Shown here: positions 47,988-52,200 of the stretch, in pieces
Position numbering within the stretch: position 1 is the first letter of the stretch
How the letters are laid out: each line of letters begins with the position of its first letter
From: Candidatus Yonathbacteria bacterium RIFCSPLOWO2_01_FULL_47_33b
GTDB taxonomy: Bacteria > Patescibacteriota > Minisyncoccia > Phycocordibacterales > UBA1550
Direction of reading: 5' to 3'
Length of the DNA stretch: 52,200 nucleotides
NCBI GenBank assembly: GCA_001823575.1
Contig: MHUW01000019.1
Span: 1 to 52,200, forward strand
Program-made: the position numbers and the translations under genes
The notes under the pieces: model-generated
Databases searched by the model: none
Told to the model about the DNA's origin: nothing
The model's input: the letters and a program-made list of their open reading frames with translations, nothing else

Positions 47988-48020
47988 AGGGGTAGTTTAG
48001 CATAAAAAACGACCCCCGCC

Positions 48021-48076
48021 GAGCCTTACAAAGGACCGCCCTTCGTATCTACGAAGGGCGGTCCTTTGTAAGGCTC
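48021..48076. repeat. Perfect inverted repeat with 27-bp arms (REP-doublet-like)
   Basis: GAGCCTTACAAAGGACCGCCCTTCGTA-TC-reverse complement. Confidence 0.75.
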
Positions 48077-48093
48077 TCAGCCCTCCCTAAAAA

Positions 48094-48135
48094 GCAAAAA
48101 CCCCATCCAACTAATATAGTCGGAGGGGTTTTTGC
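48094..48135 (-). terminator. Terminator of histone-like microprotein gene
   Basis: GCAAAAACCCC..GGGGTTTTTGC hairpin. Confidence 0.6.
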
Positions 48136-48145
48136 TAAAGCGATA

Positions 48146-48259
48146 TTATGCACGCTTCTTTGCAGTCTTCTTTGCTACCTTCTTTTTTGCTACTTTCTTT
48201 ACTGCCTTCTTTACAGCCTTCTTAGCTGTCTTCTTTGCTACCTTCTTTTTTGCTGCCAT
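48146..48259 (-). CDS. 37-aa Lys/Ala-rich histone H1-like microprotein
   Basis: MAAKKKVAKKTAKKAVKKAVKKVAKKKVAKKTAKKRA; synonymous codon variation among repeats supports coding; terminator follows. Confidence 0.8.
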   Translation of the reverse strand: MAAKKKVAKKTAKKAVKKAVKKVAKKKVAKKTAKKRA

Positions 48260-48495
48260 GTTTTTGTGTTGCGCTTGATGATGCGGTGATGCGTCATCAA
48301 ACTTATATGCAAATTTATTATCTACAATAATCTTCGACCGATCAAATGAAGTAAACCGCGAAGTAAAACTTTATTCAATCATGTGCGACTATCGGATCAT
48401 TTATGTATGAAAATTTATTTCATACACTGTTGTACTGATCTACTAATATTATCGCGCATACAAAAAACAAACACAATACTTTTTTGAAATAAAAC

Positions 48496-48504
48496 TGTGG
48501 ATAA
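48496..48504 (-). promoter_or_regulatory. Perfect DnaA box
   Basis: TTATCCACA next to AT-rich tract. Confidence 0.5.
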
Positions 48505-48560
48505 CTTTTTTTATTTTAATTTTGTAAAAAAAATTTTATTAACAAAAATTTTTTCTTTCA

Positions 48561-49583
48561 TCACACACGCATCATCACAACCTCTTCTTCAAGCGTCACA
48601 TTTGTTTTTTCTTTGATAATATTTTTCATTTCTTGCGCGAGTGACAAAATATTTTCTGCGGTTGCACCACCGTGATTCACAAGAATGAGCGCCTGATGTT
48701 CATACACACCAGCATCACCCTGGCGGTGCCCTCGAAAGCCACCAACCTTGTCTAAAAGCCATGCAGCAGAAAGCTTTACGGTATTATCCTCTTGTTTATA
48801 AGCCTTTATCCCAGGAAGCGCCCTTTCGAGCCGTGCAAACTCATCCGCTGAAACGACAGGGTTTTTAAAGAATGACCCCGCCGTACCAAGTCGCGATGAC
48901 GGCATTTTGGCGGTACGAATAGCAACGATTGCCTTGCGAATATCTACGAGCGCAGGCTCCTCAATTTTATTCTCCGCAAAAAAAGTTTTTACATCTTGGT
49001 ATTCAATGTGTGGTGTACCGTCATGACAAATACTGAATGCAGCGCGCACGACGATGAGGTTACTGTTTTTTTTAAAAATACTTTCACGATAACCAAATGC
49101 GCATTCGTCGCGTGAAATTTTTTTTATTTTCATTGTTTGCATATCAAATGCTTCTACCCATGCGAGCGCATCACATGCCTCCACGCCATACGCACCGAGG
49201 TTTTGCACGACGGCACCACCAATAGTTCCCGGTATGAGCGAAAGATTTTCTATCCCCCACAGCCCGCGCTTAACCGTATCGCGCACGACCTCATCCCACA
49301 CCTCCCCAGCGCCCGCGATAACGTGCGATGAAGAACCCTCCTCTTCATAGAAGATACCTTTGCATTCAATCTTCAAAACGAGCCCGGGAAACCCTTTGCT
49401 GGGTACGAGAATATTGGATCCGCCCCCCAACACAAAAATAGGCAGGTTTTGTGAGCGCGCAAACGCCACGCCACTACGTAAATCCGCAAGGCTTTTAACG
49501 CGTGCAAAAAAACGCGCGCTACCCCCGACCCGCATGGTGGTCATGGGTGCAAGAGGAATATGTTCTTTAATGCGTAGTGTCAT
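48561..49583 (-). CDS. murB: UDP-N-acetylmuramate dehydrogenase
   Basis: GGGSN, IPGT.GGA..N.GAYG, FGYRES, AGSFFKNP, HQAL.LVN, LEEEV. Confidence 0.96.
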   Translation of the reverse strand: MTLRIKEHIPLAPMTTMRVGGSARFFARVKSLADLRSGVAFARSQNLPIFVLGGGSNILVPSKGFPGLVLKIECKGIFYEEEGSSSHVIAGAGEVWDEVVRDTVKRGLWGIENLSLIPGTIGGAVVQNLGAYGVEACDALAWVEAFDMQTMKIKKISRDECAFGYRESIFKKNSNLIVVRAAFSICHDGTPHIEYQDVKTFFAENKIEEPALVDIRKAIVAIRTAKMPSSRLGTAGSFFKNPVVSADEFARLERALPGIKAYKQEDNTVKLSAAWLLDKVGGFRGHRQGDAGVYEHQALILVNHGGATAENILSLAQEMKNIIKEKTNVTLEEEVVMMRV

Positions 49584-49591
49584 ATGGTGAT

Positions 49592-49712
49592 AAAAAGCTC
49601 CGAGTTGATACTCGGAGCAGGGCTTCTGCACTCTTTTGGCTAGCGGGTACGAGCTCCAACAAATGTCTAATAAGTGAGTGCAGCCGCTAGCCAGAGGAAC
49701 GCACGAGCTTCT
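49592..49712 (-). ncRNA. Candidate structured RNA 2 (long hairpin plus terminator) directly upstream of murB
   Basis: TTGGTG-17-TACAAT promoter; TGGCTAGCGG/CCGCTAGCCA stem; terminator GCTCCGAG..CTCGGAGC-T5. Confidence 0.55.
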
Positions 49713-49757
49713 TTTGTATTGTAGGCGATTTTAACAAAAACACCAAGTACGGACGGG

Positions 49758-49845
49758 AAAACATAAAGCCCCGCTTTCGCGGGGCTTTATGTAGACATTC
49801 GTTTGTTGAATCGCCCAAGGGTTGCCCCCTGCGCACTCACTTACT
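49758..49845 (-). ncRNA. Candidate small RNA 1 (about 88 nt)
   Basis: TTGACT-16-TATACT promoter; GCAA-tetraloop hairpin; 13-bp GAAA-loop terminator; no SD-led ORF. Confidence 0.7.
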
Positions 49846-50032
49846 AATCCAGTATAGCAGATTCTCAAAAAAAGTCAACCCCCTACACCTACTTTTACAT
49901 TGTTGCCTCGTGTTTCAACCATTAGGTTTCCGAGAAACTGCCTTTAACAGAAAATTAGGTGCCATCCACCAATAAAATTTGCAACAAAAAACACGATGCA
50001 AAAGTAGGTGTGGGGGTCAAGTTTTTGAAGAT

Positions 50033-52168
50033 TTAGGGCCTTCTTCCCGCTTTAATCTCCTTACTATAGAACTCTCCCTGGTCTTTGAACGCTGGGTCGA
50101 GCAGTATCGCACGCTCGATTTCCGCTATTGAGTCTGCCCGGCGGCCCATTTCAAAATAGAGTGCCGAGAGCTTCGTGTGTGGATCAGCCTCGTTGGGTGT
50201 GCGTGCCACGTGTGCCACAAGAACGCGCTCAATCTCTTTGTAGTTCTTATTGTCCATGAGTACGCGCACATAGAAATTCTCAGCGTCTTGATACGCAGGG
50301 GCGAGCTCGTATGCCTGCTTAAACATCTCTTCTGCTTTCACGGTATCCTTTTTATTGTAAGACAAGCTCCCAATCTCAAACATGACTGCCTGTTTTTTAG
50401 GTGAGAGTTCATGAGCCTTCTCTAGATACACAAGGGCCTCGTCATAGCTCGCAGGATTGTAGCGCGCAAGTTGACTCAAAAATGAACCAAGGAAAAGCTG
50501 GTACCGCGCATCCTGGGAATGCGTATCAACCTGCTTTTTTAATTCGCTTACGGTGAGTTCAACAAATGCTTGCTTGGTTGCATTGTCGATCTTTTCAGCG
50601 CCGAGGATTTGCATGGTAATCTGGCTCAATTGTTCGCGCCCTTCCGAACTTCCAAAAGAGTCGTAGGCAAACACTTTCTTGAAATTCTCAAGGTTCACCA
50701 TAGGGCCTCCCTGCTGAGGCTGCAATGCTTCAATGAGCATAAAATTGGTCGCTAAAGGTTTAGCATTAAAGAAGTATATAAGAGCGACAACAAGAATTGC
50801 TGCTGCTGGAGCAATTGAAATATCGAGAGACGTCGCCTCTTCATTTTTTTTCTTATCACTTTTCTTTAGGGCGACAACTTCTCCCCCTCTTGAGCTCTCG
50901 AGGTACGCAAGGACCGAGAAGAACATTACGTAGCTCATCAGATTGTCAAACACAAAGAGGTTCTGGAAGAAGTATCCGGCGAGGAGTCCGGTGAAAATAC
51001 TTTTTTCAACAACAGAGAACGCTGAACCCCTTCTCCATAGATACCAAATGGCGAGGACAAAGAGCGATAAGTACGCGAAGAGGCCCAAGATACCGCCCGC
51101 AATGAGCCAGTCAAAGAACGCATTGTGAGCACGATCAAACCATGGCTCCTGCCCATACATATTGGGGTCATAATATGTATTGAACACGAAATTGAAGTTC
51201 TCTTGACCCCACCCAAGCATTGGTCGCTCTTTAAACCCTTGGTATGCCATATTCCACACCATAAAGCGCGACTTGGTTGTCGTCTCGGTAAGAGATATTG
51301 ACGAAAAACGCCCAAGGACGGGGCTGTTCGTCACAAACTGTGTGTCCTTCATCACAAAGAATCCACCAATAAGGAGCACGATACCTGCAAGGATTCCTAG
51401 CGCAATTTTGCGCAGACCAGTGCGCTCTTTTTCAAAAATGGCAATCAAAAGCGATGTAAGAAGGAGTCCTCCAATGAGACCCAGGATGGCTCCGCGGGTT
51501 GCCGTGTGATAGAGGACAAACACATCAAGAAGTATGAGCGGTGTGTAGATCCACACCGAAGCTTTCTCCGCAATCATCCCTCCAATAGTATGCCCTTTTG
51601 CGCGAAGCATCATAAACAACGTAAGGAACACATGGAACAGCATATAGACCGCGAGATATGCTGCATTGCCAAAGGTTGCATCAACGCGAGCGCTTCCCTG
51701 ATTTATTTGTAGTACCCCACCAAACTGAAACAACGCGTAGATACCAATAATAAAACTGACGAGTATCGAAGTATTCCAAAATGCACCCCACTTCTTTCGT
51801 GCCCCCAAAACTGTTGTTGCTATTACAAAGTACGCGAAGAAATGAAGGAGGCTTAGTACGCCTTCCATACGCTCATAGTTTGACCAGAAGCTCTTGTACG
51901 GGTTTTCGCCCAGTGCCCCCGCGAGCGCGAGAATGCCCACAAACGAGGCTGCTGCAATAAGGAGAGGTGACTTGGTGGGACGATATGCCGAATCGCGGTA
52001 CGCGAGTACGATCCATACACCAAGGAGTATTTCTACAATGATCCTAAATGCAAAGTTCTTACCCGTAATAAATGGAAAGAACATTCCGTCCGAAACGAAA
52101 AGAGGTATGAAAAGGACCAAAAATAACCCCCCTATCAATATATTGCTCAGAATTTTGTTTGTGTTCAT
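50033..52168 (-). CDS. O-antigen ligase family membrane protein with C-terminal TPR repeats
   Basis: Multi-TM; ATFGN, T.TRG, R..VW, GWGQENF, DRAHN motifs; TPR-like tail. Confidence 0.9.
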   Translation of the reverse strand: MNTNKILSNILIGGLFLVLFIPLFVSDGMFFPFITGKNFAFRIIVEILLGVWIVLAYRDSAYRPTKSPLLIAAASFVGILALAGALGENPYKSFWSNYERMEGVLSLLHFFAYFVIATTVLGARKKWGAFWNTSILVSFIIGIYALFQFGGVLQINQGSARVDATFGNAAYLAVYMLFHVFLTLFMMLRAKGHTIGGMIAEKASVWIYTPLILLDVFVLYHTATRGAILGLIGGLLLTSLLIAIFEKERTGLRKIALGILAGIVLLIGGFFVMKDTQFVTNSPVLGRFSSISLTETTTKSRFMVWNMAYQGFKERPMLGWGQENFNFVFNTYYDPNMYGQEPWFDRAHNAFFDWLIAGGILGLFAYLSLFVLAIWYLWRRGSAFSVVEKSIFTGLLAGYFFQNLFVFDNLMSYVMFFSVLAYLESSRGGEVVALKKSDKKKNEEATSLDISIAPAAAILVVALIYFFNAKPLATNFMLIEALQPQQGGPMVNLENFKKVFAYDSFGSSEGREQLSQITMQILGAEKIDNATKQAFVELTVSELKKQVDTHSQDARYQLFLGSFLSQLARYNPASYDEALVYLEKAHELSPKKQAVMFEIGSLSYNKKDTVKAEEMFKQAYELAPAYQDAENFYVRVLMDNKNYKEIERVLVAHVARTPNEADPHTKLSALYFEMGRRADSIAEIERAILLDPAFKDQGEFYSKEIKAGRRP

Positions 52169-52200
52169 TGCCCTCTACTATATCACAAAAAAACCAAAAA

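What the first reader, a model, noticed from the sequence alone, without database searches (positions are those of the whole stretch)
49592..49878. Tandem pair of mutually complementary small RNAs gating murB
There are two promoter-terminator units with no convincing ORFs. The apical loop of RNA 2 (GCACUCACUUAUUAGACAUUUGUUG, 49681-49657) is complementary to two separate parts of RNA 1: its 5' end AGUAAGUGAGUGC (13 bp, one G-U) and CAACAAACGAAUGUCUA before its terminator (with a bulge). The order is permuted, so the loop would clamp both ends of RNA 1. RNA 2's terminator ends 8 nt before the murB start, so pairing could control readthrough. It matches no RNA family I recognise. A plus-strand reading of 49667-49741 also resembles RNA 1, so an old inverted duplication is an alternative.
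Basis: partly seen in the sequence, partly recalled or inferred. Interest (0 to 1): 0.76.

Follow-up and report, generated by a model that had tools for sequence, protein, structure and literature searches.

The report
Conserved pair of base-pairing small RNAs
Two neighbouring small RNA genes in an uncultivated ultra-small (Patescibacteria) bacterium have co-evolved to pair with each other across a whole class of these bacteria, forming an undescribed two-RNA complex that does not depend on the cell-wall gene murB next to it.

Summary
On the minus strand, 49878-49592 carries two promoter-to-terminator units without credible ORFs. RNA 1 runs about 49845-49757 and RNA 2 about 49711-49592. RNA 2 is a 25-bp hairpin. 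Its 37-nt apical loop pairs with the 5' end of RNA 1 (helix A) and with the stretch just before RNA 1's terminator (helix B).

In this window alone the match is only modestly above chance. Comparison makes it strong:
- RNA 2 occurs once per genome in 106 of 151 genomes of the order and 50 of 151 of the class.
- RNA 1 lies beside it in 78 of 90 loci.
- Both helices covary: 90.8% of cells paired, 11 of 17 pairs changed on both sides, 0 of 500 shuffles as good.
- Cognate partners fit better than swapped ones (0 of 10,000 permutations).

The two are separate transcripts. In some genomes they lie on opposite strands, are split by a gene, or sit on different contigs.

"Gating murB" is not the general role. 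At least 15 genomes keep the pair but have no MurB_C match, and the terminator before murB is not conserved. No Rfam family matches.

Best reading: a dedicated two-RNA complex, function unknown. murB often rides on RNA 2's transcript.

The parts
49851..49878 (-). RNA 1 promoter-like site (-35 TTGACT at 49878-49873, extended -10 TGnTATACT ending at 49851)
   Evidence: The same motif stands at the same distance in the genus and order loci. The same 26 nt precede a protein gene at G000:C18.
49757..49845 (-). RNA 1, about 89 nt (5' end inferred from the promoter; 3' end from the hairpin and U tail)
   Evidence: Conserved in 25 of 28 genomes of the genus at E <= 1e-13. The covariance model finds it beside RNA 2 in 78 of 90 order loci.
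49833..49845 (-). Helix A strand of RNA 1 (its 5' end)
   Evidence: I4. Pairs 16-25 with 223-232 of alignment A9 are 90.3% paired, and 6 of 10 pairs changed on both sides.
49812..49834 (-). RNA 1 internal hairpin (GNRA-type loop in this genus; length varies elsewhere)
   Evidence: Compensatory changes (columns 10-32).
49792..49808 (-). Helix B strand of RNA 1, directly before its terminator
   Evidence: I6. Pairs 69-75 with 240-247 of A9 are 91.6% paired, and 5 of 7 changed on both sides. Cognate partners beat swapped partners.
49754..49792 (-). RNA 1 terminator-like hairpin (14 bp) with U-rich tail
   Evidence: I3. Covariation (columns 66-97). Not listed by the scan.
49718..49746 (-). RNA 2 promoter-like site (TTGGTG-17-TACAAT)
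   Evidence: Read. I read a -10-like hexamer 8-20 nt before the hairpin in most genus sequences and in many order loci. Not flagged.
49592..49711 (-). RNA 2, about 120 nt including its own terminator (ends inferred)
   Evidence: The model for the hairpin finds one copy in each of 106 of 151 genomes of the order. A broader model finds it in 50 of 151 genomes of the class.
49622..49708 (-). RNA 2 long hairpin (arms 49708-49684 and 49646-49622)
   Evidence: I2. 10 of 29 predicted pairs show compensatory changes, and the G-U pairs fit only this strand.
49647..49683 (-). RNA 2 apical loop: A' 49681-49669, B' 49669-49657, invariant GGAG 49657-49654, then a conserved tail
   Evidence: About 28 nt are invariant in 18 of 18 genus sequences. 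Pairing partners as.
49592..49618 (-). RNA 2 terminator-like hairpin and T-run, ending 8 nt before murB
   Evidence: I saw it, read by eye, in part of the genus but in few other lineages.
48561..49583 (-). murB (340 aa, ATG at 49583): a neighbour, often co-transcribed, not part of the RNA pair
   Evidence: Pfam MurB_C 4e-24 and FAD_binding_4 1.3e-23.

Best explanation
RNA 1 (about 85-90 nt) and RNA 2 (about 90-125 nt) are two separately transcribed small RNAs. They form one specific two-RNA complex, and that complex, not murB control, is what selection maintains.

Proposed sequence of events:
1. RNA 2 folds into a roughly 25-bp rod that presents a 37-nt apical loop.
2. RNA 1's single-stranded segment between its internal hairpin and its terminator pairs with the 3' half of that loop (helix B).
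3. RNA 1's 5' end pairs with the 5' half of the loop (helix A).

The two helices sit in permuted order. The result is therefore a closed clamp: a four-helix junction made of the RNA 2 rod, helix A, the RNA 1 hairpin and helix B, with the RNA 1 terminator stacked at the A/B joint. An invariant GGAG-containing strand of the loop stays unpaired.

I think the complex most likely acts as a unit, either as the RNA part of an unknown ribonucleoprotein or as a two-state RNA switch. In about 60% of genomes murB has no promoter or Shine-Dalgarno sequence of its own and is read from RNA 2's transcript. There the hairpin, and possibly RNA 1, must also affect murB expression as a side effect.

Shown: conservation, separate genes, both helices, independence from murB. 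Inferred: the transcript ends, the order of pairing, the junction geometry, and action as a unit.
For: Conservation:
- RNA 2 occurs once per genome in 106 of 151 genomes of the order.
- It occurs in 50 of 151 genomes of the class, consistently by family.
- In the phylum draw of 151 genomes only one marginal match lies outside the class.
- In the genus the RNAs are 73-94% identical in DNA. MurB is 53-64% and the upstream protein 42-84% identical in protein.

Pairing in trans:
- On 38 tandem units, 90.8% of cells pair, 11 of 17 pairs changed on both sides, 0 of 500 shuffles are as good, and slid registers pair at 22-55%.
- On 76 genomes, cognate helix B averages -14.7 kcal/mol against -10.5 for swapped partners; 0 of 10,000 permutations match this.

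Separate transcripts:
- Each RNA has its own promoter-like site.
- RNA 1 lies on the opposite strand in 5 of 78 loci and convergent in one locus of another order.
- A 451-aa gene separates the two in G014.
- RNA 1 is on another contig in G098 and G134, and its helix A and B segments still fit that genome's RNA 2 loop (read by eye).

Co-occurrence: 56 of 58 genomes with an RNA 1 match also have RNA 2.

Independence from murB:
- 15 of the 20 listed genomes without a MurB_C match carry RNA 2. For 13 of them I also found RNA 1 (12 beside RNA 2, one on another contig), and where I read its helix B segment it fitted that genome's loop.
- 23 of 43 loci without murB have a terminator right after RNA 2.

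Helix A is nearly invariant across the class while helix B drifts freely. That suggests helix A is read as a sequence and not only as a helix.
Against: - No transcript data: no RNA run was listed, so ends, strands and abundance are inferred.
- No partner protein or activity is identified. 'Acts as a unit' is an inference from co-location, co-occurrence and the invariant helix A.
- Tight linkage to murB in 64 of 107 loci, with the start codon at the hairpin base, fits a regulatory leader equally well in those genomes.
- RNA 1 was not found near RNA 2 in 12 of 90 loci by the model. One of the 12 was recovered by eye, three were found elsewhere or further away, and two remained unfound after a whole-genome search.
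- RNA 2 was not detected in 45 of 151 genomes of the order or in 101 of 151 of the class. It is either not universal or has diverged beyond the models.
- The covariation controls ignore relatedness between genomes.
Confidence: 0.55

Rival explanations
1. First reader's model, generalised. RNA 2 is the murB leader and RNA 1 is its dedicated antisense regulator. Pairing at the loop changes termination, processing or translation of murB, and that is the system's purpose.
For: - murB follows RNA 2 on the same strand in 64 of 107 loci (53 by the script plus 11 that I added from its list).
- Its start codon lies -15 to +23 nt from the hairpin base in 44 of 57 loci, and I saw no Shine-Dalgarno sequence or promoter in between.
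- In this window a terminator stands 8 nt before murB.
- In one locus (L043) a SecA-like start follows RNA 2 by 10 nt, read by eye.
Against: - 15 genomes keep RNA 2 without any MurB_C match, and I found RNA 1 in 13 of them. 15 genomes have murB without detectable RNA 2.
- 23 of 43 loci without murB end RNA 2 with its own terminator.
- In one genome murB lies between RNA 1 and RNA 2.
- RNA 1 pairs with the loop, not with the stem strand that covers the start codon. I found no alternative antiterminator fold in the window.
- Masking of the GGAG by RNA 1 is no more frequent in cognate pairs (38 of 68) than in swapped pairs (372 of 672).
Confidence: 0.2
2. Regulator and decoy. One of the two RNAs is a base-pairing regulator of other messages, and the other is its sponge or mimic, titrating it.
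For: - RNA 1's pairing segments are its 5' end and a single-stranded stretch, as in many seed regions (recalled).
- The pair persists without murB.
Against: - The 8-mers of helix A occur at chance level in the genome: 26 found, about 22 expected. Longer matches are confined to this locus apart from single chance-level hits.
- Helix B drifts freely while staying matched to its partner, which is hard to reconcile with many other targets.
Confidence: 0.15
3. One pseudoknotted transcript. RNA 1 and RNA 2 are domains of a single structured RNA or riboswitch that folds in cis.
For: - They stand in tandem on the same strand in 72 of 78 loci, often only 15-60 nt apart.
- RNA 1's hairpin has a weak U-tract in many lineages.
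Against: - Opposite-strand, convergent, gene-interrupted and unlinked arrangements all keep the pairing.
- A -10-like element precedes RNA 2 even where the gap is short.
Confidence: 0.07
4. A relic of an inverted duplication, or a DNA-level element with no RNA function.
For: The reverse complement of RNA 2's loop looks like a circular permutation of RNA 1.
Against: - Conservation at class level, compensatory changes in four stems and two intermolecular helices, and strand-specific G-U pairs.
- The stretch is unique in the genome.
Confidence: 0.02

Closest known systems
CopA-CopT of plasmid R1 and RNA I-RNA II of ColE1 (antisense control through hairpin loops; recalled, not fetched)
   Same: A small RNA recognises the apical loop of a long hairpin in a partner RNA. 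A second contact through a single-stranded end follows. The predicted product is a four-helix junction and not a full duplex.
   Different: - Those regulators are encoded on the opposite strand of their target and are fully complementary to it. Here the partners are separate genes with two short matched segments in permuted order.
- Those systems are plasmid copy-number controls. This one is chromosomal, single copy and conserved across a bacterial class.
- This pair persists without the downstream gene.
Trans-encoded base-pairing small RNAs acting on mRNA leaders, such as DsrA-rpoS or IstR-1/tisB (recalled)
   Same: Each RNA has its own promoter and terminator. Pairing is short and imperfect with a structured 5' leader. 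In 64 of 107 loci RNA 2 is physically the 5' leader of murB.
   Different: - There is a single dedicated partner, not a regulon.
- Pairing is to the loop, away from the start codon.
- The 'target' is itself a stand-alone terminated RNA in many genomes.
Two-piece stable RNAs, such as the permuted two-piece tmRNA (recalled)
   Same: Two RNA chains are held together by conserved helices, encoded side by side, and co-occur.
   Different: - A standard one-piece tmRNA is present elsewhere in this genome.
- No one-piece homologue of this pair was found.
- The pieces have their own promoters and are not cut from one precursor.
T-box leader with tRNA (two-point recognition of a trans RNA by a leader; recalled)
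   Same: A leader RNA contacts a separate RNA at two distant sites.
   Different: No T-box match in Rfam, no conserved terminator/antiterminator pair, and the ligand is a dedicated small RNA.

Membership tests
Known housekeeping RNAs in Rfam (6S RF00013, SRP RNA RF00169/RF01854, tmRNA RF00023, RNase P RNA RF00010) | Match to the family's covariance model at its gathering score | tested here: not met
   - 0 matches in the window and 0 in 17 homologous loci.
- The best sub-threshold hits are unrelated families far below their cut-offs.
- tmRNA and RNase P RNA lie elsewhere in the genome.
- No SRP RNA and no 6S match over the cut-off anywhere in the genome.
Cis-antisense countertranscript systems (CopA-CopT type) | Regulator transcribed from the opposite strand of its target, overlapping it | tested here: not met
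   RNA 1 is a separate gene upstream of RNA 2. It is on the same strand in 72 of 78 loci and unlinked in two genomes.
Cis-antisense countertranscript systems (CopA-CopT type) | Pairing starts at a hairpin loop of the target and ends in a four-way junction | not testable with these tools
   The loop location of both target segments and the permuted order are shown. The junction and the pathway are inferred.
Trans-encoded regulatory sRNA with an mRNA leader as target | The paired partner is the 5' leader of a regulated gene | tested here: inconclusive
   True in 64 of 107 loci, where murB follows directly. Not true in 43. 15 genomes keep RNA 2 without any MurB_C match.
Two-piece stable RNA | Two chains joined by conserved, covarying helices, always found together | tested here: met
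   Helices A and B covary. 56 of 58 genomes with RNA 1 also have RNA 2. RNA 1 lies beside RNA 2 in 78 of 90 loci, and more were found by eye or elsewhere in the genome.
Two-piece stable RNA | A one-piece homologue exists, or the pieces are cut from one precursor | tested here: not met
   No one-piece form appeared in the order, class or phylum searches. The pieces have their own promoter-like sites and sometimes lie on opposite strands.
Riboswitch or attenuator of murB | Conserved expression platform (terminator/antiterminator or start-site sequestration) tied to the downstream gene | tested here: not met
   The terminator before murB is present in the window. I saw it in part of the genus but in few other lineages. 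The RNA persists without murB.
Type I toxin-antitoxin pair | A conserved small toxin ORF on one of the two RNAs | tested here: not met
   Only unsupported 31-49 aa ORFs are present. Those on the minus strand begin before the inferred RNA starts or cross the gap between the two RNAs, and one lies on the plus strand. The RNA 1 hairpin varies in length by amounts that are not multiples of three.

The most novel reading that the evidence does not exclude
The pair is an obligate two-piece housekeeping RNA. On this reading it is the RNA core of an undescribed ribonucleoprotein, or a self-organising RNA machine, specific to one class of Patescibacteria and comparable in standing to 6S or SRP RNA. RNA 2's loop acts as a splint: it places RNA 1's 5' end against the base of RNA 1's own terminator. 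A bolder variant is that this splint guides processing or end-joining of RNA 1.
Probability: 0.3. Interest if true: 0.9.

Novelty: new variant of a known kind. Interest (0 to 1): 0.8.

Why it matters
To my knowledge no small RNA has been characterised in the Candidate Phyla Radiation, and six literature searches here surfaced none. These are tiny, uncultivated bacteria that make up a large share of bacterial diversity.

This is a single-copy RNA pair conserved across a class, with intermolecular pairing that is proven by covariation, strong promoter-like sites and a nearly invariant core. It is therefore a concrete handle:
- It can be added to annotation as two new RNA families.
- It can be tested in vitro with nothing but transcripts.
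- It is a bait for finding the protein, if any, that reads it.

The analysis also corrects the obvious first guess. The pair is not simply a murB switch, because it survives in genomes where no MurB_C domain is found.

Tried and rejected
- **Expression.** No RNA holder was listed for window 48000-52200.
- **SRP RNA idea.** No SRP RNA model matches in this genome or in 41 relatives. Ffh and FtsY domains are not found either, so a diverged SRP RNA is not a sensible reading.
- **One cis-folding transcript.** Rejected by the opposite-strand, interrupted and unlinked arrangements.
- **Masking of the invariant GGAG by RNA 1.** No better in cognate than in swapped pairs.
- **Other targets of the helix A seed.** The 8-mers occur at chance level.
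- **Replication-origin link.**
  - A perfect DnaA-box 9-mer follows the locus in many genomes.
  - GC skew does not flip in the window.
  - dnaA, with four boxes, lies on contig C8.
  - The 9-mer occurs 22 times in the genome.
- **Single-window significance.** The best duplex alone is not above shuffles (188 of 1000).
- The murB rows used an out-of-frame translation, because I took the start as 49585 and not 49583. They are void and are replaced.
- ** tally.** The count of 59 of 61 at E <= 1 is too loose to mean anything. Only the strong genus matches are used.

Full report
**What is in the window.** Read on the minus strand, the 447-nt gap lies between a Wzy_C/TPR membrane-protein gene (50033-52168; Pfam) and murB (48561-49583; MurB_C and FAD_binding_4). 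It holds three things.

1. At 50029-49864 there is a 166-nt inverted repeat. Its arms recur, usually as inverted pairs, at about 14 other places in this 719-kb genome. It is a dispersed hairpin element and not part of the finding.
2. RNA 1:
   - a near-consensus promoter-like site at 49878-49851;
   - a 5' segment at 49845-49833;
   - a hairpin at 49834-49812;
   - a single-stranded segment at 49808-49792;
   - a perfect 14-bp hairpin with a U-rich tail at 49792-49754.
3. RNA 2:
   - a promoter-like pair at 49746-49718, which I read by eye;
   - a 25-bp hairpin at 49708-49622 with a 37-nt loop;
   - a terminator-like hairpin and T-run at 49618-49592;
   - then 8 nt, then the murB ATG.

Only unsupported 31-49 aa ORFs overlap the stretch. 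The stretch folds much better than shuffles (z = -7.4).

**The complementarity.** Within this window alone the best duplex is not unusual (188 of 1000 shuffles). The two-site score is unusual (4 of 1000).

**It is not a known RNA.**
- Rfam gives nothing at gathering scores in the window or in 17 homologous loci. The permissive scan gives only unrelated hits far below their cut-offs.
- No tRNA or tmRNA lies in the window.
- tmRNA and RNase P RNA are found elsewhere in the genome.
- SRP RNA and 6S are not found over their cut-offs.
- I considered a diverged SRP RNA and dropped it. The Ffh M domain is missing from 41 of 41 relatives. The SRP GTPase domain is missing from this genome (motif check).

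**Conservation.**
- The stretch is unique in its genome.
- Both units are strongly conserved in 25 of 28 genomes of the genus. The spacer between them varies, and in G014 it holds a 451-aa GlgC-like gene.
- About 28 nt of the RNA 2 loop are invariant in 18 of 18 genus sequences.
- MurB is only 53-64% identical in the genus, and the upstream protein 42-84%.
- Consensus folding shows compensatory changes in the RNA 1 hairpin and terminator (8 of 25 pairs) and in the RNA 2 rod (10 of 29 pairs). The G-U pairs fit only the minus strand.
- A covariance model of the RNA 2 hairpin finds one copy in each of 106 of 151 genomes of the order (96 of 131 genera).
- A broader model finds RNA 2 in 50 of 151 genomes of the class. 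Presence or absence is consistent within families.
- In a phylum draw of 151 genomes, only one marginal match lies outside the class.
- Loci from other orders of the class show the same layout.

**Two RNAs, pairing in trans.** I examined 90 order loci.
- The RNA 1 model finds a partner near RNA 2 in 78 of them. In 72 it is upstream on the same strand, in 5 upstream on the opposite strand, and in one there is a doubtful downstream hit.
- Of the 12 loci without a hit, one clearly has RNA 1 by eye. One has it 745 nt upstream, and two have it on another contig. The two unlinked copies I read in full have their own promoter-like sites, and all three have helix A and B segments that fit that genome's loop. 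Two of the genomes searched in full remained without a convincing RNA 1.
- In one locus of another order RNA 1 is convergent with RNA 2.
- A -10-like element precedes RNA 2 even where the gap is short.

The pairing is therefore intermolecular.

**Evidence for the pairing.**
- On 76 genomes, the helix B duplex between cognate partners averages -14.7 kcal/mol, against -10.5 for swapped partners. None of 10,000 permutations reaches this.
- On an alignment of 38 tandem units, the 17 pairs of helices A and B are 90.8% paired. Eleven pairs changed on both sides (29 cells). No shuffle out of 500 is as good on any measure, and slid registers pair at only 22-55%.
- Helix B is replaced wholesale in several families yet stays complementary.
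- Helix A is nearly invariant but has compensated changes at four positions. One is the A-U swap shared by this window and G014.

These controls do not model relatedness between genomes, so the numbers are not probabilities.

**What the pairing builds.** Both targets lie in one hairpin loop and the order is permuted. A one-to-one complex must therefore close into a junction of four helices: the RNA 2 rod, helix A, the RNA 1 hairpin and helix B. RNA 1's 5' end and its terminator meet at the joint between A and B. The loop's invariant GGAG-containing tail is left over. This geometry is inferred. A self-paired state of the free loop is predicted but rests on invariant columns. RNA 1 does not preferentially cover the GGAG.

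**Relation to murB.** Across 107 loci:
- murB follows RNA 2 on the same strand in 64. The script counted 53, and I added 11 from its list where the open frame merely starts earlier or up to 180 nt later.
- Where a start could be placed (57 loci), it lies -15 to +23 nt from the hairpin base in 44, and I saw no Shine-Dalgarno sequence in between. In those genomes RNA 2 is the murB leader and must influence its expression.
- 43 loci have no murB behind RNA 2, and a crude scan finds a terminator right after RNA 2 in 23 of them.
- One genome has murB between the two RNAs.
- MurB_C is found in 114 of 151 genomes of the order. Of the 20 listed genomes without it, 15 carry RNA 2. Conversely, 15 of the 20 listed genomes without RNA 2 have murB.

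The pair is therefore kept for a reason other than murB. The window's terminator 8 nt before murB is a feature of part of this genus, and I found no antiterminator alternative.

**Verdict.** The "pair of mutually complementary small RNAs" is right, and the clamp idea is supported by covariation. "Gating murB" is at most a side effect. I favour a dedicated two-RNA complex acting as a unit (0.55). The alternatives are a murB regulator (0.2), a regulator-decoy pair (0.15) and a single cis-folding RNA (0.07).

**Literature.** Searches with Patescibacteria, CPR or Parcubacteria combined with RNA terms returned nothing that describes this pair. I saw listings and abstracts only. Supplements were not available.

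**Earlier notes of this scan.** Three earlier notes describe what seems to be the same system upstream of murB in other genomes. They agree on the pairing. They are not independent evidence.

Noticed in passing
window 49864-50029: A 166-nt inverted repeat (24-nt arms 88% complementary, plus inner arms) sits directly upstream of the RNA 1 promoter. Its arms recur, mostly as inverted pairs 60-110 nt apart, at about 14 other places in the genome. In G020 I saw copies between RNA 1 and RNA 2 and again downstream of RNA 2. It looks like a small mobile hairpin element.
   Followed up: partly
whole genome G000 and relatives: The SRP system was not found.
- SRP RNA models: 0 hits in G000 and 0 of 41 relatives.
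- Ffh M domain: 0 of 41.
- SRP GTPase domain PF00448: marginal hits only, in 2 of 121 genomes of the class and 1 of 101 of the phylum, against 14 of 14 control genomes.
- No ORF with the DTAGR motif in G000.
Three literature searches found no statement either way. Either this is a real phylum-wide loss or the tool's first look has a blind spot. It deserves its own check.
   Followed up: partly
window 48496-48504: A perfect DnaA-box 9-mer lies 57 nt after the murB stop. A perfect box follows murB within 400 nt in 17 of 22 loci. It follows RNA 2 within 300 nt in 22 of 43 loci without murB. It is probably not the origin: GC skew does not flip in the window, and dnaA lies on contig C8 with four boxes around it. 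The genome holds 22 such boxes against about 5.5 expected.
   Followed up: partly
window 48146-48480: Downstream of the DnaA box there is a promoter-like site and a hairpin-rich leader of about 210 nt. It precedes a 37-aa lysine-rich ORF (48146-48259). The same leader and ORF are recognisable in G020. This may be another conserved structured leader.
   Followed up: no
order-level genomes: MurB_C was not found in 37 of 151 genomes of the order, many of them 97-100% complete. Part of this order may therefore lack MurB.
   Followed up: no
L152 (G014:C13:26700-28800): In the closest relative a 451-aa GlgC-like (nucleotidyl-transferase) gene is inserted between RNA 1 and RNA 2, 1.7 kb apart.
   Followed up: partly
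G000:C18:29935-29960 (L007): The 26 nt of the RNA 1 promoter recur identically in front of a protein-coding gene that has a clear ribosome-binding site. A tRNA cluster lies nearby. This suggests a common strong promoter type in this genome.
   Followed up: partly
G070 contigs C1 and C31: RNA 2, RNA 1 and murB all appear twice with identical scores on two contigs. This is a duplication or an assembly redundancy.
   Followed up: no
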